Source: a virus
Taxonomy: Duplodnaviria > Heunggongvirae > Uroviricota > Caudoviricetes
Strand: one strand, 5' to 3'
Length of the DNA stretch: 30,818 nucleotides
IMG/VR virus record: IMGVR_UViG_2565956711_000013
Coordinates: 1 to 30,818 of that record
This document shows, piece by piece, positions 6,457-14,600 of the stretch (position 1 is the stretch's first letter; every line of letters starts with the position of its first letter). Under the pieces are notes generated by a model. That model ran no database searches, was not told the DNA's origin, and saw only the letters and a list, made by a program, of their open reading frames with translations. The position numbers and the translations under genes are program-made.

Positions 6457-6871
6457 GCGTTATCGCACTCCACAGATCATCAAAAGAAATCATTACCGGT
6501 CCGTCACGACGCCAGAGAGTGATACTGTTACCCAGTTCATTAATCCCGGTGCGGCGGATATCCAGATCAATACGGGACACCACGCCATCATCAATCATCC
6601 ATTGCAGGCATTCGCGGATATACCCCCTTACCGTCTGCACCAGTTGATTGGTCAGTTTGCTGCGCTGAAGCAGCCACAGTCGGGAGCCGTAACGGTCATT
6701 CTGTACCGCAGGCCAGGTATCCCCCCACCATCCCATCGGGACGTCGGCATTGTCATCAGGCTCCGCCCGCCGCCAGGTAAACAGGGAAATCACCACGGCG
6801 CGGGTCAGCGGATCCAGCGGTGCGCTGGCGCAGGTGCGTTTACCGTTCACCGTCAGCCACAGTTCCATCAT
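6443..6871 (-). CDS. Baseplate protein (Mu gp46-like)
   Basis: 142 aa; overlaps both neighbours, between the V-like and J-like baseplate genes. Confidence 0.6.
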   Translation of the reverse strand: MMELWLTVNGKRTCASAPLDPLTRAVVISLFTWRRAEPDDNADVPMGWWGDTWPAVQNDRYGSRLWLLQRSKLTNQLVQTVRGYIRECLQWMIDDGVVSRIDLDIRRTGINELGNSITLWRRDGPVMISFDDLWSAITHGGQ

Positions 6872-7416
6872 GCCTCCATCGCTTTATCAGGTTTGTCGGT
6901 GTTACTGCCCTGACCGTTCTCTCTGTGACGATGCCCGTTATAGGCAAGCCGCATCGCTGACATGGTGGTGCCACCGGAGTCGCACAGGTCTTTCACCTGT
7001 CCGGTCACTTCAAGGTCCATTTCAAAACGTGCTTTAGGTGAATTGCGAAACGTGATCGTTTTACCTGCACCGTCCACCACGATCCCCTCCCGGGTCAGCG
7101 TCACGGACTGCCCCTGATCGTCATAGACAGCCACCTCCCCAGTCTGCAGCCCTTTCAGGCGGTAGCGACGGTCCGACACCGTAACAACCACCGCATGAGA
7201 ACGGTCGCCATCCGGAAACAACACCACAGCTTCCGCACCGCTGTTTGCCCTTGCGGTAAAACCGTAGGGTTCAAGATGTTCAACCCCGGCTTTGGGTTCA
7301 CCGGCAATCAGGGACACATCCACGGTCTGACATTTCGTGGCGGCACTGATGCTTTTCACCACGGCCCGCCCAATCAGGCCGAGGAGTTGTCGCTGCATGG
7401 CTTCAATCGTCCTCAT
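6868..7416 (-). CDS. Baseplate assembly protein V / spike (Mu gp45-like)
   Basis: 182 aa; position and sequence character of gpV-like spike proteins. Confidence 0.65.
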   Translation of the reverse strand: MRTIEAMQRQLLGLIGRAVVKSISAATKCQTVDVSLIAGEPKAGVEHLEPYGFTARANSGAEAVVLFPDGDRSHAVVVTVSDRRYRLKGLQTGEVAVYDDQGQSVTLTREGIVVDGAGKTITFRNSPKARFEMDLEVTGQVKDLCDSGGTTMSAMRLAYNGHRHRENGQGSNTDKPDKAMEA

Positions 7417-8495
7417 CAGAACGGGTCCTCCTGTACTCTGGCTTTTTTCTTTTTCCGCGCGCCGGGGGCTTCGGGTTCAGGCAGATAAGCATCAGGCGGG
7501 CCGACACGGATTTCCGTCAGGGTGCCGTTCTGGTCCTGAGTAAACGTGACTTCCGAAACAAGCAGTTCGGTATTGTCGAAACCACAGACCGGATCAAAGA
7601 CAATCACCCGCTGGTTGGGCTGCCACAGCGTACCGTTACCCTGTCGCCAGCCCTGCACCACATAGGTGGTTTCATCCGTCCGCGCCGCCCGTTGTCTGGC
7701 TTCAAAGTCCGCACGGGCAATACAGCCTGCCCCCGTAGCCTGCCCTGTCTGCCTGATATACATCGGACGGTAACGGGCAATAAATGCGTCCTCTGTGCGG
7801 GCCCGCAGCGCGGTGGTGGTGGCCTCACCGAAATCATCGTCGTTTCCGGCACGCTGCCCCGCCACCTGGTAAACAGAAAACCGCTCCCGGATACTCTTCT
7901 CCGTATCGCAGGAAAGGATGTTTTCCCCGAGTACCAGCGCAGTATGTGCCCGCGTTGAGCCAATACCGCCAATCACCAGCCTGCCGTGCGGGTCGTCGTA
8001 AGCCAGTGCCTGCTGCTGACCGAGTATTTTGTTGATTACCTCAATCACCGTTTCACCGTGATCAGGCTGAACATCAGGAATAACACCCGACGGCGCACCG
8101 CTGTTCACCACCTCAATGCCGAAAGGCGCAGCAAGCGCCTGCGCAATCTGCACCAGCGAGCGTCCGTTAAACTGTGTCGGTTCAGCTGCACAGTCAATCA
8201 GGTCAGCCGTCAGACTACGTCCGGCAATACCGGTGCTGACCGAACGGGAATCGTAACGAACGGGCGTCGCCTCCACCCAGCCGGTGATCACCAGCTCATC
8301 ACCAATCAGCACTTCCACTTTTGAACCGTTTTTAATGCGCGGCTGAAGCGTGGTGATACCCTCATCTCCCGGCCACTGGCGGGTGATCTCCACACTGAAA
8401 TCCCGCGCCAGCCGTTCAATACCGGCACCGATGCGCACCGATGTCCAGCCATTCCACTCCCGGCCATTTACCCGTAGCGTGACATTGTCGTTCAT
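7416..8495 (-). CDS. Baseplate hub / tail protein (Mu gp44-like)
   Basis: 359 aa; directly downstream of the DNA-circulation-like gene, as in Mu-like tails. Confidence 0.65.
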   Translation of the reverse strand: MNDNVTLRVNGREWNGWTSVRIGAGIERLARDFSVEITRQWPGDEGITTLQPRIKNGSKVEVLIGDELVITGWVEATPVRYDSRSVSTGIAGRSLTADLIDCAAEPTQFNGRSLVQIAQALAAPFGIEVVNSGAPSGVIPDVQPDHGETVIEVINKILGQQQALAYDDPHGRLVIGGIGSTRAHTALVLGENILSCDTEKSIRERFSVYQVAGQRAGNDDDFGEATTTALRARTEDAFIARYRPMYIRQTGQATGAGCIARADFEARQRAARTDETTYVVQGWRQGNGTLWQPNQRVIVFDPVCGFDNTELLVSEVTFTQDQNGTLTEIRVGPPDAYLPEPEAPGARKKKKARVQEDPF

Positions 8496-10504: not shown

Positions 10505-12337
10505 CTACCTGAACCGCGTATAGCCAACATCATGGCTGACATCAAAACCGCTGGATCGCGTTTCCATAACCCGCATACCCGGAGGCGAATTCACAAAAGA
10601 GACCTTGATCTCACCATCAACTTTTGGCACAGAAGCTTTGTTAATCATGAAGGGATTCGAGCCTGTGGCATCGGAGGCGTTTTTTGACTGAGCCGGATCC
10701 ACCGCCGGATAAGGTGTGTATCCCCGCGCCGGTATTCCCGTCCCATAAGCATCATAAGCACCCGCGCCCCACTGCGCAGAGTTAATGGCATCGACCGTGT
10801 CACCGGAACTGTCGGTAAACCACTCAATAATTGGCTTCAGCTTGTCCCACATATCCTGAAACCACTTAACAACCGGTCCCCAGTTATTGATCACCATCCC
10901 CAGCGGCGACCAGGCAAAAACCTTCTTCAGAAGTTCCCAACCTGCCTCAAAATAAGGACCAATGGTTTCCCAGAGCTTCTTGAAATAAGGTCCGACAACA
11001 TCCCAGTTAGTGATAATTAATCCCGCAGCCAGAGCAATCGCCGTCGCAATCATGCCAATCGGCGTCATCGACATAATCCTGCTGACAATACTGATGGCAC
11101 TGCCCACGCCCATCAATCCCAGTTTCAGAATCGCAAGACCGGCAGCAAGCCCGACGACGCCGCGAATAACCCGGGGATTTTCATCCGCAAACTTCGTGAA
11201 TTTCTCCCCCAACTCCCCCAGCCATTGTGTGATATTTTTAGCGTCACCAGAAAATGCGCCGCCAATAGCCGCAAGGCCGTTAGTTGCGGTCCCTGTCATT
11301 GCCTCCCACAGGTTGGACAGCGTACCAAGCTGTGCCTGAACACGTTTATTCAGGCTGGCCTGTTTATTCATCTTCTGCTGGATCTGATCGTAGCCATCCT
11401 TTCCTTTATCGATTAGTGCATTGACCACCTGAAGAGTTTCGGCATCATCACCAAATATTGCCTTAAGTACACCTGTTCGCTTAACGTCGGTCAGTTTTCG
11501 CAGCTTTGCCAGTTGCCTGAACATGTTATCAAGACCGCCAAAACTCCCTTTGCCGTCAGTAAAATCGAGCTGTACCCCGAGTTTCTGGCGGGCCATGATT
11601 TTATTAACGTCCCTGATTTTCTTAACGCTTAATCCGGACTGGATAACTTTTCGCAGGGCATTACCTGCCGACTCCCCGTTCATCCCCATCTGATCCATCA
11701 TGACGCTGATGGGGGCAAGGCTCTGTGCAGCCTGAAGACCATCCTTGTTCACCATCTTCAGAACAGAACTGGTTTTAGTGAAGAAGGACAACATGTTGGT
11801 ATCGTCAACGCCCAGATAAAACGCCTTCTGGATAGTGTCGAACAGCCCCATCATGTCTTCTGACGCCGTTCCGGTAGCATCCTGCATCTTTGCCGCAAAC
11901 TCAGCAGCCGCTTCCGGTGTTTTTTTCAGTTGTACCGCAAGATAAGCTGTCGCTTTACCCACACCACCCAGAATGTTTTCTGCCGGGATCCCCTGACGCA
12001 CCAGCATCTGCATCATGTTCTGGAAATCAGCCGTTGTACCGGGTAGCTGGTTACCCAGGCCAATAGCCAGTTTATTGATGTCCTGAAAGCGCTTTCCAAC
12101 CTCGCCGTTCGCATCCATCATGGCGACTTTCAGCCCGGTGGCGGCGTTTTCCTGATCGGCATAAGATTTCAGGGAAAGCGTCAGACCCGCAGCCAGTCCG
12201 CCACCAAGCGCCAGCCCACCCTGTGACGCTTCTTCCGCCTGGCGTTTAAATCCCCGGATTTTCTTTTGCATTTTCGACAGCGCGGGAGAAAGCCTGTCGA
12301 CACCGGTGATCAACGCCTTAAGCTCAAATTCAGCCAT
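10505..12337 (-). CDS. Tail tape measure protein
   Basis: 610 aa; Ala/Gly-rich with a hydrophobic C-terminal segment; located after the tube and chaperone genes. Confidence 0.8.
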   Translation of the reverse strand: MAEFELKALITGVDRLSPALSKMQKKIRGFKRQAEEASQGGLALGGGLAAGLTLSLKSYADQENAATGLKVAMMDANGEVGKRFQDINKLAIGLGNQLPGTTADFQNMMQMLVRQGIPAENILGGVGKATAYLAVQLKKTPEAAAEFAAKMQDATGTASEDMMGLFDTIQKAFYLGVDDTNMLSFFTKTSSVLKMVNKDGLQAAQSLAPISVMMDQMGMNGESAGNALRKVIQSGLSVKKIRDVNKIMARQKLGVQLDFTDGKGSFGGLDNMFRQLAKLRKLTDVKRTGVLKAIFGDDAETLQVVNALIDKGKDGYDQIQQKMNKQASLNKRVQAQLGTLSNLWEAMTGTATNGLAAIGGAFSGDAKNITQWLGELGEKFTKFADENPRVIRGVVGLAAGLAILKLGLMGVGSAISIVSRIMSMTPIGMIATAIALAAGLIITNWDVVGPYFKKLWETIGPYFEAGWELLKKVFAWSPLGMVINNWGPVVKWFQDMWDKLKPIIEWFTDSSGDTVDAINSAQWGAGAYDAYGTGIPARGYTPYPAVDPAQSKNASDATGSNPFMINKASVPKVDGEIKVSFVNSPPGMRVMETRSSGFDVSHDVGYTRFR

Positions 12338-12497
12338 GTGTGCGTTTCTCCTGCTCTATCCTGTTTGCCTGACTGACCAGCAAGGGAATTTCACTGATCG
12401 GCATACTCAGCAATTCGAAGGGATTAATGCGCCAGTAGCTGGCGCAGTCAAAGAAGCGATCAGTGAGGTATTCAGCCGTCAGGCCTGGAGGAAAAAA
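12330..12497 (-). CDS. -1 frameshift extension of the tail assembly chaperone (GT-like product)
   Basis: The -1 frame is open from the heptamer U_UUU_UUC (plus 12491-12497) to the stop at 12330, overlapping the tape measure start; expected fusion about 139 aa. Confidence 0.55.
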   Translation of the reverse strand, partial: FFPPGLTAEYLTDRFFDCASYWRINPFELLSMPISEIPLLVSQANRIEQEKRTHG

Positions 12498-12748
12498 CCA
12501 GCCACAAGCCACGCCGCTGCATTCAGGTCTGCCGGAGACATCTGGTCGACAGAGCTTTGCGGCACTTTCGCCAGCCGCACAATGTATTTCGACACCACAT
12601 GCGCCAGAAGTTTGACTGACTCATCCTGATTCATCTGGTAGGGATACCCCAGCTCGCGGACATCCTTCCCGGTGGGCTCATCAAACTCCAGTACGGAGAG
12701 TGTCTCGCCATGAGCAGTAATCGGTTTCTTTAACTCAAGCTCTTTCAT
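12479..12748 (-). CDS. Tail assembly chaperone (G-like)
   Basis: 89-aa ORF between the tube and tape measure genes; slippery heptamer near its 3' end. Confidence 0.65.
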   Translation of the reverse strand: MKELELKKPITAHGETLSVLEFDEPTGKDVRELGYPYQMNQDESVKLLAHVVSKYIVRLAKVPQSSVDQMSPADLNAAAWLVAGFFLQA

Positions 12749-13104
12749 TACTGGTAATCCCCTTCTTCACCGTGGAACTCAAGATCAACCGTGCCTTCTT
12801 CGGCATTATGGTTCGCTTCGCCGTGCAGCCAGGCAGACGACAGTACATAGACCTGACCGTTAGCCAGCTCGGCAGTGATGGTCATCTCATCAGACGAGGT
12901 GATTTTGCTCACCGGAAAATTCTTCGGTACCTTGAAGGTCCCTTTGACATAAGGCGCACGGTGAGTTTCCTTGCGGTCCACTGAACCGTCCAGGCCGATG
13001 ATGTCATCATTGACCGTCCTGTTCATGGGCACCTCAATGCCGCCGGTCAGCGATAGCTGCTGACCGTCAATTTTGAAATAACAGGTTCCCCCGATACGGG
13101 CCAT
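12748..13104 (-). CDS. Contractile tail tube protein
   Basis: 118 aa, immediately downstream of the sheath gene with a start/stop overlap. Confidence 0.75.
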   Translation of the reverse strand: MARIGGTCYFKIDGQQLSLTGGIEVPMNRTVNDDIIGLDGSVDRKETHRAPYVKGTFKVPKNFPVSKITSSDEMTITAELANGQVYVLSSAWLHGEANHNAEEGTVDLEFHGEEGDYQ

Positions 13105-14600
13105 TATGCGGACTCCTCTGAATACTGAAGACGGAACTGGTTAACCACGGCAAAGACACGCAACTGGTTAACATAGTCAGGCGGGAACAGCGTGTTCAGG
13201 CGGTTCGGATCGCTGGCATCACGCTCCACAACCAGGTACTGCTTGAACAGTTCGTAGTTTTCCACGATCCCCGCGCGCTCAAGCTGACAGTAGGTTGCCA
13301 GCAGTTCCCCTTTGATCACCGCCGGGGTGACAATCGCCTGACCGGGACCAAAGCGGGTACCGTCGCTGGCAAGCTTGTGACGCCCGTACTTACTGGTAAT
13401 GACGGATTTCAGTTTGCGCAGCACATACGCGCTGGTATGCAGCGTCTCGCTGTCGAGGTAGCTGTTATCCGCAACCCCATAAGCATTTTTCCTGTACGTG
13501 GTGACATCACGCTGAATGCGCAGCACCCCGCTTTCGACATACGCCGTTGCCACGCCATGAGACAGCAGGGTCTGCTGCTCGGTCATCGTGAACCGTTTCC
13601 CCTTCGGCGCAGGCAACATACCCACCAGCTCACCGGTCTGCGTGGGACGTGCCGGATCGTTGCGGATAAACACCGCTGCGCGGGCGGTACGGCTTGCCGC
13701 CAGCTCGTCGGCAGGCGTCTGGGTGTCTTTTTCGTACCCCGCCAGGGTAATGTGCTGCTGGTTAAACTGGTCACCTGCGGTCACCAGTTCTGACAGCGTG
13801 CCGGTCTTTGCCGTATACACATGACCATACAGCTGACGCGCATAGCTCCAGCGACCGCTGGTATCGTTCATCTCGGTCACCAGCGTGTTAACGGAGGCCG
13901 TGTCGTTGAACGGCAGACCGATATAATCAAACGGCTCATCCGCCATTGCAGCCACCGCACCGGTGAGAACAGGAGCGCCCGTTCCGGCGGTCCCCGTCGC
14001 CACGGCAATCTGTACGCCCGCTGGCAGCACTTCGCCCCCACCAAAGCCGTAGTAATTGAGGCTGACAGGAATTTCATTCCCGCAAAGCCCCTTATGACGC
14101 GCGGTCAGTGTGACCACGCCTGCCGAAGATGAGGCCGTAAACGGCAGGGCCGGAACGGCATTGATGGCATCCTTGATACTGCTGGCAATCGTCGTGACGT
14201 TATCGCCGTTGGTCACCGGTGCCTGCACGCGGGTACGTCCCACATAAACATTCACCGTGCCGGTTTCGGTTGCTGCTCCGGTCACCGTCAGCGTAACCGT
14301 TGCCGCCGCGCCTGTGGCTTCCGGAACGGCAATCACATACAGCTCGCCAAACGGGTCGGTCTGGCGATAAGCCTCGACCATACGCGCCAGCTGACTTCCC
14401 GCACCACAAATCTGGCGTGCATAGTCTGCCGACGGCATCAGCACCAGACTGTTGGCAACAATCTCTGCACCGTTATTGGCGTGACCAATCAGCAACGATG
14501 CCCCGCTATCCTGTGCAGTATTCGCTGCCGAGTTATCCATTTCCGCATAAAACAACGGAACCAGCGTATTCGACGGAATGGTGTTAAAGCTTATCGTCAT
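13104..14600 (-). CDS. Contractile tail sheath protein
   Basis: 498 aa; size and sequence character of Mu/P2-type sheath proteins. Confidence 0.8.
   Translation of the reverse strand: MTISFNTIPSNTLVPLFYAEMDNSAANTAQDSGASLLIGHANNGAEIVANSLVLMPSADYARQICGAGSQLARMVEAYRQTDPFGELYVIAVPEATGAAATVTLTVTGAATETGTVNVYVGRTRVQAPVTNGDNVTTIASSIKDAINAVPALPFTASSSAGVVTLTARHKGLCGNEIPVSLNYYGFGGGEVLPAGVQIAVATGTAGTGAPVLTGAVAAMADEPFDYIGLPFNDTASVNTLVTEMNDTSGRWSYARQLYGHVYTAKTGTLSELVTAGDQFNQQHITLAGYEKDTQTPADELAASRTARAAVFIRNDPARPTQTGELVGMLPAPKGKRFTMTEQQTLLSHGVATAYVESGVLRIQRDVTTYRKNAYGVADNSYLDSETLHTSAYVLRKLKSVITSKYGRHKLASDGTRFGPGQAIVTPAVIKGELLATYCQLERAGIVENYELFKQYLVVERDASDPNRLNTLFPPDYVNQLRVFAVVNQFRLQYSEESA

What the first reader, a model, noticed from the sequence alone, without database searches (positions are those of the whole stretch)
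12330..12748. Programmed -1 ribosomal frameshift in the tail assembly chaperone
The 89-aa chaperone ORF ends shortly after a U_UUU_UUC heptamer (plus 12491-12497), and the -1 frame is open from there for about 53 more codons, overlapping the tape measure start. This is the conserved G/GT-type arrangement of tailed phages and supports the tail-module assignment. It also explains the overlapping 60-aa track ORF.
Basis: partly seen in the sequence, partly recalled or inferred. Interest (0 to 1): 0.4.

Follow-up and report, generated by a model that had tools for sequence, protein, structure and literature searches.

The report
Tail chaperone -1 frameshift, P2 E/E+E' type
An SfV-like prophage of E. 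coli/Shigella very probably makes two versions of its tail assembly chaperone (89 aa and 139 aa) by letting a small share of ribosomes slip back one base at UUUUUUC; this trick is well known in tailed phages, is conserved here, and is missing from the database annotations.

Summary
On the minus strand, the 89-aa chaperone gene (12479-12748, Pfam Phage_TAC_7) carries an in-phase T_TTT_TTC heptamer (12491-12497) three codons before its stop. The -1 frame is open for exactly 53 more codons and ends 8 nt inside the tape measure gene, giving a 139-aa fusion.

Comparative evidence supports function:
- 35 of 38 loci from different bacterial species, plus seven phages, keep an in-phase T_TTT_TTY heptamer at the homologous Phe-Phe codons.
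- They have a 50-59-codon -1 extension ending at the tape measure start.
- The -1 frame shows a coding substitution pattern.
- Most relatives have no start codon that could express the extension alone.

No conserved stimulatory RNA structure or upstream Shine-Dalgarno-like element was found.

The geometry matches phage P2 gpE/gpE+E' (91/142 aa, TTTTTTG at the homologous Gly-Phe codons, 8-nt overlap with gene T). However, the -1 domain does not match the Pfam model of P2 E'.

No examined record annotates the slippage, and the exact fusion protein is absent from a 15-billion-protein collection.

Verdict: a real but ordinary new member of a known kind. It matters mainly as an annotation fix. Expression of the fusion is inferred, not shown.

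The parts
12479..12748 (-). Zero-frame tail assembly chaperone gene (89 aa; equivalent to P2 gpE and lambda gpG). Its ATG overlaps the tail tube stop (TAATG).
   Evidence: ORF. Pfam PF10109 Phage_TAC_7 scores 61.1 bits against a cut-off of 25, covering residues 4-86. phrog_166 'tail protein'. RefSeq names it 'phage tail assembly protein'.
12491..12497 (-). Slippery heptamer T_TTT_TTC (U_UUU_UUC in the mRNA), with zero-frame codons GGT TTT TTC
   Evidence: Sequence and phase. An in-phase T_TTT_TTC or T_TTT_TTT sits at the homologous codons in 7 phages and 35 of 38 genome loci. Both motifs are listed as shift-prone in E. coli (PMC4066793).
12330..12491 (-). -1-frame extension: 53 codons (12333-12491) plus the TGA stop (12330-12332). 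It encodes the C-terminal 'T/E'-like' domain of the 139-aa fusion. Base 12491 is read twice.
   Evidence: Translation. phrog_32181, E=2e-40. The third codon position of the -1 frame varies most: 27/16/41 variable columns, p=0.004, with pairwise counts. The conserved motif is A-x-(F/Y)-W-(R/K)-(I/L)-N-P.
12330..12512 (-). The mechanical 60-aa ORF (GTG start) that gene callers sometimes annotate as a separate hypothetical protein. It is the -1 frame of the fusion, not an independent gene.
   Evidence: It is annotated 'hypothetical protein' in ON470584 and on at least 1000 contigs. The GTG is not conserved: 5 of 8 phages have no start codon in this frame upstream of the heptamer.
10505..12337 (-). 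Tape measure protein gene (610 aa). Its ATG overlaps the stop of the -1 extension by 8 nt. Its own AGGAG ribosome-binding site lies at 12348-12352, inside the extension.
   Evidence: PF10145, 95 bits, and tape measure PHROGs. Upstream sequence.
12748..13104 (-). Tail tube protein gene (118 aa), immediately upstream
   Evidence: PF10618 Tail_tube, 114.9 bits, and phrog_185.
13104..14600 (-). Tail sheath protein gene (498 aa). It sets the myovirus context.
   Evidence: PF04984, PF17482 and PF17481, plus phrog_165.

Best explanation

Most ribosomes translate the 89-aa chaperone and stop at UGA (12479-12481). A small fraction slip back one base when tRNA-Phe occupies both the P site (UUU) and the A site (UUC) on U_UUU_UUC. 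Both tRNAs re-pair with UUU. Those ribosomes then read 53 more codons in the -1 frame and produce a 139-aa protein with the same N-terminal 86 residues and a new C-terminal domain.

By analogy with lambda gpG/gpGT and P2 gpE/gpE+E', the shared N-terminal part would coat the tape measure protein. The rare extended form would add a domain that recruits the tube, or tube and sheath, subunits so that the tail polymerises to the right length. Neither form would end up in the virion.

Shown here: the sequence geometry, its conservation, purifying selection on the -1 frame, and the lack of an independent start. Inferred: that slippage occurs, how efficient it is, and what the two proteins do. The heptamer appears to act without a conserved RNA stimulator, so efficiency is probably low, on the order of 0.1% to a few percent.
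For: - Geometry: the heptamer is in phase, the -1 extension is 53 codons, and it overlaps the tape measure gene by 8 nt.
- Family: PF10109 Phage_TAC_7 ends at residue 86, exactly at the slip site. In P2 gpE it ends at residue 85.
- Position: between the tube and tape measure genes.
- Conservation in phages: SfV, SfI, SfII, Pantoea AH07, Edwardsiella EPP-1, SfIV, phiP27, ST64B and YeP1 all keep T_TTT_TTC or T_TTT_TTT at the homologous x-F-F codons, with a 52-53-codon extension.
- Conservation in genomes: 35 of 38 species-representative loci do the same. The next long ORF's start was found for 32 of the 33 loci scored and lies between a 14-nt overlap and a 1-nt gap from the extension's end, most often an 8-nt overlap.
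- The zero-frame tail after the heptamer varies freely (3 to 26 codons) while the -1 peptide keeps its motif.
- Codon-position bias in the -1 frame: 27/16/41 variable columns, p=0.004, and pairwise counts such as 6/3/25.
- No conserved start codon for the -1 ORF.
- P2 precedent: E is 91 aa, E+E' is 142 aa, the slip site TTTTTTG is at GGT TTT TTG, and the overlap with gene T is 8 nt. The P2 record annotates a -1 frameshift and calls both essential tail proteins.
- U_UUU_UUC and U_UUU_UUU frameshift measurably in E. coli: 0.12% and 0.33% alone, 7.6% and 10.2% with a pseudoknot (PMC4066793 Table S3).
Against: - No protein-level evidence was available.
- No stimulatory element was found. The 45 nt downstream fold no better than shuffles (z = -0.05).
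- The only consensus helix is 44 nt away, has no compensatory changes, and overlaps conserved codons. No Shine-Dalgarno-like sequence is conserved upstream.
- In a reporter context the bare heptamer gives only about 0.12%, far below the roughly 1:30 ratio reported for lambda. Either the ratio here is much more extreme or an unrecognised stimulator exists.
- The -1 domain does not match Pfam PF06528 (P2 E'). Its similarity to P2 E' and to Mu's extension is weak.
Confidence: 0.87

Rival explanations
1. Transcriptional slippage, not ribosomal slippage. RNA polymerase occasionally adds one extra U while copying the T6 run (T7 in the SfIV/P27 group). The resulting mRNAs have the chaperone and extension in one frame. 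The protein product (…G-F-F-P-P-G…) would be identical to that of -1 ribosomal frameshifting.
For: The slip site is a homopolymeric T run in every relative. PMC4066793 notes that UUUUUUU is under-represented in all three frames in E. coli genes, possibly because of transcriptional slippage. The bare-heptamer ribosomal rate is low at 0.12%, so even rare polymerase slippage could contribute comparably.
Against: The runs are short: 6-7 T, with a single T8 in one endosymbiont locus. From general knowledge, efficient polymerase slippage in enterobacteria needs about 9 or more identical bases or a nearby hairpin, and none is present. Selection for polymerase slippage should favour longer runs, yet the run is held at 6-7. 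It is always in the X_XXY_YYZ phase, although that phase could simply be inherited with the homologous codons. The homologous P2 site is annotated and described as a translational frameshift.
Confidence: 0.07
2. The 60-aa ORF (12330-12512) is an independent small gene, translated from its own GTG start, as some GenBank records annotate it.
For: A GTG exists at 12510-12512 in the window and in SfV, and an ATG sits at the equivalent place in EPP-1. ON470584 and many genome records call it a 'hypothetical protein'. It has its own PHROG.
Against: Five of eight phages (AH07, SfIV, phiP27, ST64B, YeP1) have no ATG, GTG or TTG in that frame between the preceding stop and the heptamer, yet the peptide is conserved from the heptamer onward. 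No Shine-Dalgarno sequence precedes the GTG. The ORF always begins to be conserved exactly at the slip site.
Confidence: 0.02
3. A chance open frame or a decayed gene. The -1 frame is open by accident, or the locus is a once-single 139-aa gene broken by a homopolymer indel or a sequencing error.
For: Homopolymer runs are error-prone. Rare variants exist: a T5 allele is implied by P0023, there are degraded copies in endosymbionts, and the indel-ridden record 118970_sal3.
Against: The same two-frame layout is present in about 1100 of 5426 complete E. coli genomes at 95% identity or more. It is present in plaque-forming, independently sequenced phages (SfV, SfI, SfII, phiP27, ST64B) and in 35 of 38 species-level loci. 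No relative has the two parts fused in one frame. The codon-position bias shows the -1 frame is translated.
Confidence: 0.02

Closest known systems
Phage P2 gpE / gpE+E' (-1 frameshift at TTTTTTG; Christie et al. 2002, as cited in PMC3091744; annotated in NC_001895)
   Same: - Both N-terminal parts are in Pfam PF10109, and the domain ends at the slip site in both.
- The slip site lies on homologous codons: P2 has GTC GGT TTT TTG and the window has GCT GGT TTT TTC.
- Product sizes are similar: 91/142 aa against 89/139 aa.
- Both have an 8-nt overlap of the extension's stop with the tape measure start.
- Both sit just upstream of the tape measure gene in a contractile-tail operon.
- Neither has a notable downstream structure.
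   Different: - Pairwise identity is only about 21% (E=0.34).
- The last base of the heptamer is C, not G.
- P2's E' domain matches PF06528 at 76 bits. The window's -1 domain does not, and the profile similarity is weak (E=1.2e-3, probability 19%).
- The rest of the tail module (sheath, tube, DUF2635 gene) is Mu-like, not P2-like.
Phage lambda gpG / gpGT (-1 frameshift at G_GGA_AAG; Levin et al. 1993 and Xu et al. 2004, 2013, 2014, as reviewed in PMC5009743)
   Same: The logic and gene position are the same: a chaperone gene between the major tail/tube gene and the tape measure gene, a slippery heptamer near its end, and a -1 extension that reaches the tape measure gene. Two products are made in a fixed ratio and neither is in the virion.
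   Different: This is a non-contractile siphovirus tail with a different protein family and a different heptamer. There is no detectable sequence similarity. Lambda's ratio is about 30:1, and the ratio here is unknown.
Phage Mu gp41 (tail assembly chaperone; -2 frameshift according to Xu et al. 2004 and Baranov et al. 2006, cited in PMC5009743)
   Same: The neighbouring tail genes are Mu-like, with the sheath noted as similar to Mu gpL and the tube to gpM. Mu gp41 has a marginal PF10109 match (24.7 bits, just below the 25-bit cut-off). Mu's extension frame carries a collinear motif (…P-E-W-A-L-S-L-P-L-S…) with weak profile similarity to the -1 domain here (E=1.4e-4, probability 52%).
   Different: Mu gp41 is 144 aa, matches PF23746 Gp41_Mu, and has no in-phase U-rich heptamer. 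Its extension lies in the +1/-2 frame. The window protein does not hit PF23746, and the shift here is -1.

Membership tests
G/GT-type programmed frameshift of tailed-phage tail assembly chaperones (Xu, Hendrix & Duda 2004) | The chaperone gene lies between the major tail (tube) gene and the tape measure gene, on the same strand | tested here: met
   Tube 12748-13104, chaperone 12479-12748 and tape measure 10505-12337, all on the minus strand.
G/GT-type programmed frameshift of tailed-phage tail assembly chaperones (Xu, Hendrix & Duda 2004) | [quoted passage not shown] | tested here: met
   T_TTT_TTC with zero-frame codons GGT TTT TTC, three codons before the stop.
G/GT-type programmed frameshift of tailed-phage tail assembly chaperones (Xu, Hendrix & Duda 2004) | A second ORF in the shifted frame that overlaps the first, lacks a start of its own, and extends to about the tape measure start | tested here: met
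   53 codons ending 8 nt inside the tape measure gene. No conserved start codon in 5 of 8 phages.
G/GT-type programmed frameshift of tailed-phage tail assembly chaperones (Xu, Hendrix & Duda 2004) | The slip site and the shifted ORF are conserved in divergent relatives, with the shifted frame evolving as protein | tested here: met
   7 phages and 35 of 38 genome loci. Codon-position bias of 27/16/41.
G/GT-type programmed frameshift of tailed-phage tail assembly chaperones (Xu, Hendrix & Duda 2004) | Both the short and the frameshifted proteins are made, and both are needed for tail assembly | not testable with these tools
   This needs mass spectrometry or western blots and genetics on an SfV-type phage.
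Pfam PF10109 Phage_TAC_7 (P2 gpE, Mu gp41, 'gp14') | HMM score above the gathering threshold | tested here: met
   61.1 bits against a 25-bit cut-off, residues 4-86, profile positions 2-78 of 79. The P2 gpE control scores 47.8 bits.
Pfam PF06528 Phage_P2_GpE (the E' domain of P2 gpE+E') | HMM match of the frameshift-encoded C-terminal domain | tested here: not met
   No hit at E<=0.01 for the fusion or the -1 ORF. None at E<=1 for 23 homologous extensions. The P2 control scores 76.3 bits. hhalign against P2 E' gives only E=1.2e-3, probability 19%.
Pfam PF23746 Gp41_Mu, with the Mu-type -2 frameshift | HMM match to Gp41_Mu, with the extension in the -2/+1 frame | tested here: not met
   Only PF10109 is found for the window protein. 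The extension is in the -1 frame. The Mu control scores 119.5 bits.
Stimulated -1 frameshift sites (dnaX or IS3/IS911 type) | A downstream hairpin or pseudoknot 5-9 nt from the heptamer, and/or a Shine-Dalgarno-like element 6-17 nt upstream | tested here: not met
   Downstream 45 nt: MFE -6.2 kcal/mol, z = -0.05. 61 nt and 91 nt: z = -0.77 and -1.66. The consensus fold finds only a helix 44 nt away with 0 compensatory pairs. No conserved Shine-Dalgarno-like sequence upstream. No Rfam family.

The most novel reading that the evidence does not exclude
The site may work as a bare-heptamer frameshift with no RNA stimulator. That would give a chaperone:fusion ratio in the hundreds to one, at least ten times more extreme than lambda's 30:1. 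Alternatively, it may depend on a stimulator of an unrecognised kind, such as the nascent peptide or a long-range pairing.

In addition, the frameshift-encoded domain (phrog_32181, no Pfam match) would be a distinct adaptor family, different from P2 E'. The same chaperone family would have moved its extension between the -1 register (P2, SfV type) and the -2 register (Mu, and perhaps the Pantoea bathycoeliae copy L045) during evolution.
Probability: 0.15. Interest if true: 0.35.

Novelty: new member of a known kind. Interest (0 to 1): 0.15.

Why it matters
The value is mainly practical.

- This prophage type is present in about a fifth of complete E. coli genomes (1099 of 5426), and it includes the Shigella serotype-converting phages SfV, SfI and SfII.
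- None of the records examined annotates the slippage. RefSeq leaves a 141-nt apparent gap there, and other records call the -1 ORF a separate hypothetical protein.
- The fusion protein is absent from a 15-billion-sequence protein collection.
- Adding the joined CDS would correct thousands of annotations and remove a spurious 'hypothetical protein' family (phrog_32181).

Biologically it adds another well-conserved case to the rule that tailed phages make two tail chaperones by recoding. It also offers a natural series for studying stimulator-free slippage: T_TTT_TTC against T_TTT_TTT, with zero-frame tails of 3 to 26 codons. It does not change current understanding.

Tried and rejected
1. Downstream stimulatory structure. 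I folded 45, 61 and 91 nt after the heptamer in the window and in relatives and ran a consensus fold on 12 SfV-type sequences. Nothing is significant near the site. The conserved hairpin at 12428-12446 is 44 nt away, has no covariation, and breaks in L025 and L028. I take it to be a by-product of the C-A-x-Y-W-R codons. A few distant relatives (L026, L031, L044) do have hairpins 1-6 nt downstream, but these are not shared.
2. Upstream Shine-Dalgarno-like stimulator: none is conserved.
3. Independent initiation of the 60-aa ORF: rejected, because no start is conserved.
4. The second in-phase TTTTTTC with a long -1 frame, on the plus strand at 7195-7488: it lies opposite longer minus-strand ORFs at 6868-7416 and 7416-8495, so I treated it as spurious. 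Those ORFs were not scanned against the family libraries.
5. Homology of the -1 domain to P2 E' and to Mu's extension. Pfam finds nothing, and hhalign is weak though collinear. I left this as inconclusive.
6. NCBIfam has no model for any of these proteins, not even P2 E+E'.
7. No solved structure exists for a sequence relative, and the chaperone is not resolved in the Mu virion cryo-EM.
8. Literature. Xu et al. 2004 and Christie et al. 2002 are not held. The supplement of PMC10885494 does not list the Xu phages. I could not establish whether SfV-type phages were in the original list of 28. The SfI and SfIV genome papers never mention a frameshift. The E. coli survey of Sharma et al. found only lambda-type chaperone clusters.
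9. I did not run structure prediction or the large protein searches. The verdict does not depend on them, and the fusion could not be given a deep alignment under the tool's input rules.
Full report
**What is in the sequence**

The finding's coordinates (12330-12748) span two overlapping minus-strand ORFs inside a contractile-tail operon. The operon order is tail sheath (13104-14600, 498 aa), tail tube (12748-13104, 118 aa), an 89-aa ORF (12479-12748), a 60-aa ORF in another frame (12330-12512), and the tape measure gene (10505-12337, 610 aa).

Pfam and PHROG scans confirm these roles. The 89-aa protein is a Phage_TAC_7 member (PF10109, 61.1 bits against a 25-bit cut-off), the family named after P2 gpE and Mu gp41. 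The 60-aa ORF matches only a small PHROG of unknown function (phrog_32181, E=2e-40).

**Check of the observation**

- On the coding strand the sequence reads …GCT GGT TTT TTC CTC CAG GCC TGA.
- The heptamer T_TTT_TTC (plus-strand 12491-12497) has its first T at the third position of the Gly codon. This is the phase required for simultaneous -1 slippage of the P-site and A-site tRNAs.
- After the slip the frame is open for exactly 53 codons (PPGLTAEYLTDRFFDCASYWRINPFELLSMPISEIPLLVSQANRIEQEKRTHG).
- Its TGA (12330-12332) overlaps the tape measure ATG (12335-12337), sharing the 8 nt ATGGCTGA.
- The fusion is 86 + 53 = 139 aa.

As a background measure, ORFs of at least 80 aa in the window contain 58 in-phase X_XXY_YYZ heptamers. 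Only two of these have a -1 frame running 30 or more codons past the zero-frame stop. One is this site. The other is a plus-strand ORF opposite longer minus-strand ORFs and is probably spurious. Only 4.4% of 53-codon -1-frame windows inside long ORFs lack a stop.

**Where the window comes from**

The 900 bases around the site are 98-100% identical to Shigella phages SfV, SfI and SfII, to several E. coli phages, and to prophages in 1099 of 5426 complete E. coli genomes. This is an SfV-like temperate myovirus with Mu-like sheath and tube genes.

**Comparative test**

I fetched progressively more distant relatives.

- Pantoea phage AH07 and Edwardsiella phage EPP-1 are 71-77% identical over the fusion. 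They keep T_TTT_TTC at the same codon and a 53-codon extension.
- SfIV, phiP27, ST64B and Yersinia YeP1 are 30-41% identical. They have T_TTT_TTT at the homologous x-Phe-Phe codons and a 52-53-codon extension ending 8-11 nt inside the tape measure gene.
- A scan of one genome per bacterial species returned 38 loci, from Enterobacterales, Derxia, a Methylococcales MAG and uncultured proteobacteria. Thirty-three showed the same layout outright, and two more did once the frame was set correctly.
- The remaining three are in insect-endosymbiont genomes. Two (Arsenophonus, L047 and L050) have the gene broken across frames. The third (Ca. Pantoea bathycoeliae, L045) has an intact chaperone frame but the conserved domain one frame off.

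Across all of these, the zero-frame tail after the heptamer varies from 3 to 26 codons with little conservation. The -1 peptide keeps an invariant-to-nearly-invariant core, A-x-(F/Y)-W-(R/K)-(I/L)-N-P … A-x-R-I.

Substitutions in the extension fall mostly on the third position of the -1 frame:
- 27/16/41 variable columns in ten SfV-type sequences, chi-square p=0.004.
- Pairwise counts such as 9/8/27 and 6/3/25.

So the -1 frame is translated and is under purifying selection.

**Rival readings**

- *Independent gene.* Five of eight phages have no ATG, GTG or TTG in that frame between the previous stop and the heptamer, and no ribosome-binding site precedes the window's GTG. An independent 60-aa gene is therefore rejected.
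- *Broken gene or sequencing error.* This is excluded by the constancy of the two-frame layout in viable, independently sequenced phages and in hundreds of genomes. No relative has the parts fused in frame.
- *Transcriptional slippage.* Slippage on the T6/T7 run would yield the same protein and cannot be excluded from sequence alone. The run is short and is held at 6-7, there is no adjacent hairpin, and the homologous P2 site is described as translational. I give this about 7%.

**Stimulators**

- The 45, 61 and 91 nt downstream of the heptamer fold no better than shuffled sequence (z = -0.05, -0.77 and -1.66).
- A consensus fold of 12 SfV-type sequences finds a single helix (window 12428-12446). 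It lies 44 nt from the heptamer, has zero compensatory changes, and breaks in the two most divergent sequences. It sits on the most conserved codons of the extension.
- No Shine-Dalgarno-like element is conserved upstream, and Rfam finds nothing.
- Some distant relatives have their own hairpins 1-6 nt downstream (L026, L031, L044), but these are not shared.

The heptamer therefore seems to act alone, as reported for P2 and its Burkholderia relatives (PMC3091744). In an E. coli reporter, U_UUU_UUC gave 0.12% frameshifting alone, 0.9% with the IS911 stimulator and 7.6% with the IS3 pseudoknot. U_UUU_UUU gave 0.33% alone, and P2's U_UUU_UUG gave 0.12% (PMC4066793 Table S3). The efficiency here is thus probably low, but it is unknown.

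**Comparison with known systems**

P2 is the closest precedent.
- Its record annotates gpE (91 aa) and gpE+E' (142 aa, -1 frameshift, both 'essential tail protein'), with the E+E' stop overlapping gene T by 8 nt.
- The slip site is GTC GGT TTT TTG, on the codons homologous to GCT GGT TTT TTC here.
- In both proteins the Phage_TAC_7 domain ends at the slip site.

There are differences.
- Pairwise identity is about 21%.
- P2's E' domain matches PF06528, while the domain here matches no Pfam family.
- Profile comparisons with P2 E' (E=1.2e-3) and with Mu's extension frame (E=1.4e-4) are collinear but weak.

Lambda gpG/gpGT is the functional analogue and is where the mechanism is understood. G and the G part of GT bind the tape measure protein, the T part binds the major tail protein, the ratio is about 30:1, and neither is in the virion (PMC5009743). 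Mu, whose sheath and tube genes resemble those here, is reported to use a -2 shift. It has a different chaperone subfamily (PF23746).

**State of annotation and literature**

- None of the RefSeq or GenBank records I opened annotates slippage. PGAP leaves a 141-nt gap, and ON470584 lists the -1 ORF as a hypothetical protein.
- The exact 139-aa fusion is not in the 15-billion-protein collection, whereas the 89-aa and 60-aa pieces each occur on at least 1000 contigs.
- The SfI and SfIV genome papers do not mention a frameshift.
- A systematic E. coli survey recovered only lambda-type chaperone clusters among prophage genes.
- I could not read Xu et al. 2004, so I cannot say whether SfV-type phages were among its 28 genomes.

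**Verdict**

This is a P2 gpE/gpE+E'-type programmed -1 frameshift in the tail assembly chaperone of an SfV-like prophage. The comparative evidence is very strong, but production of the fusion has not been shown experimentally. It is a new and unannotated member of a well-known kind, interesting mostly as an annotation correction. Two minor open points remain: the apparent lack of any stimulator, and the unclassified -1 domain.

Noticed in passing
window 7195-7488 (+): A second in-phase TTTTTTC heptamer, at codon 84 of a 97-aa plus-strand ORF, has a -1 frame open for 169 codons. It lies opposite longer minus-strand ORFs at 6868-7416 and 7416-8495, presumed baseplate genes from their position. 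It is most likely a spurious antisense ORF, not a recoding site.
   Followed up: partly
window 12428-12446 (-): A perfect 8-bp hairpin, UGCGCCAG-CUA-CUGGCGCA, lies 44 nt downstream of the heptamer and is conserved in SfV-type relatives. It has no compensatory changes, breaks in L025 and L028, and coincides with the C-A-S-Y-W-R codons. It is probably a by-product of protein conservation, but it has not been tested as a long-range stimulator.
   Followed up: yes
L045 1700-1800 (Ca. Pantoea bathycoeliae MAG): Relative to its closest relatives, one G is missing just before the T7 run. The chaperone body and the conserved extension are therefore in a +1/-2 relation instead of -1. This could be a pseudogene, an assembly error, or a Mu-like -2/+1 slip on the U7 run.
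   Followed up: partly
L047 and L050 (Arsenophonus endosymbiont of Aleurodicus floccissimus): Both chaperone copies are broken across several frames, though they still carry the T7 run and a recognisable extension. They look like decaying prophages in a reduced symbiont genome.
   Followed up: partly
protein P0023 (E. coli; 3 contigs, longest about 5.1 Mb): A 63-aa 'hypothetical protein', MQRRGLWPVFPPGLTAEY…, implies an allele with only five T's. That would destroy the heptamer and put the extension in a different register. It is either a rare inactivating mutation or a homopolymer sequencing error.
   Followed up: no
L010 (Salmonella phage 118970_sal3, NC_031940): In this record the sheath is split into three CDS, the tape measure gene into two, and the chaperone's -1 frame is interrupted. 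A second place in the same 77-kb record aligns over the full length of the query. This suggests an indel-rich or chimeric assembly.
   Followed up: no
window 12338-12352 (-), 12748 and 13104: The tape measure gene has its own AGGAG, 10 nt upstream of its ATG and embedded in the last codons of the -1 extension. The sheath/tube and tube/chaperone junctions each overlap by one base (12748 is TAATG), which suggests translational coupling along the operon.
   Followed up: partly
loci L018, L022, L028-L030, L042, L044: In several relatives the Gly codon is GGG, creating a second overlapping in-phase heptamer (G_GGT_TTT) one codon upstream of T_TTT_TTY. This forms an extended slippery tract, G_GGT_TTT_TTC. 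The window has GGT and therefore only one heptamer.
   Followed up: no
window 1-30818: No tRNA genes and no Rfam families at gathering threshold anywhere in the window.
   Followed up: yes
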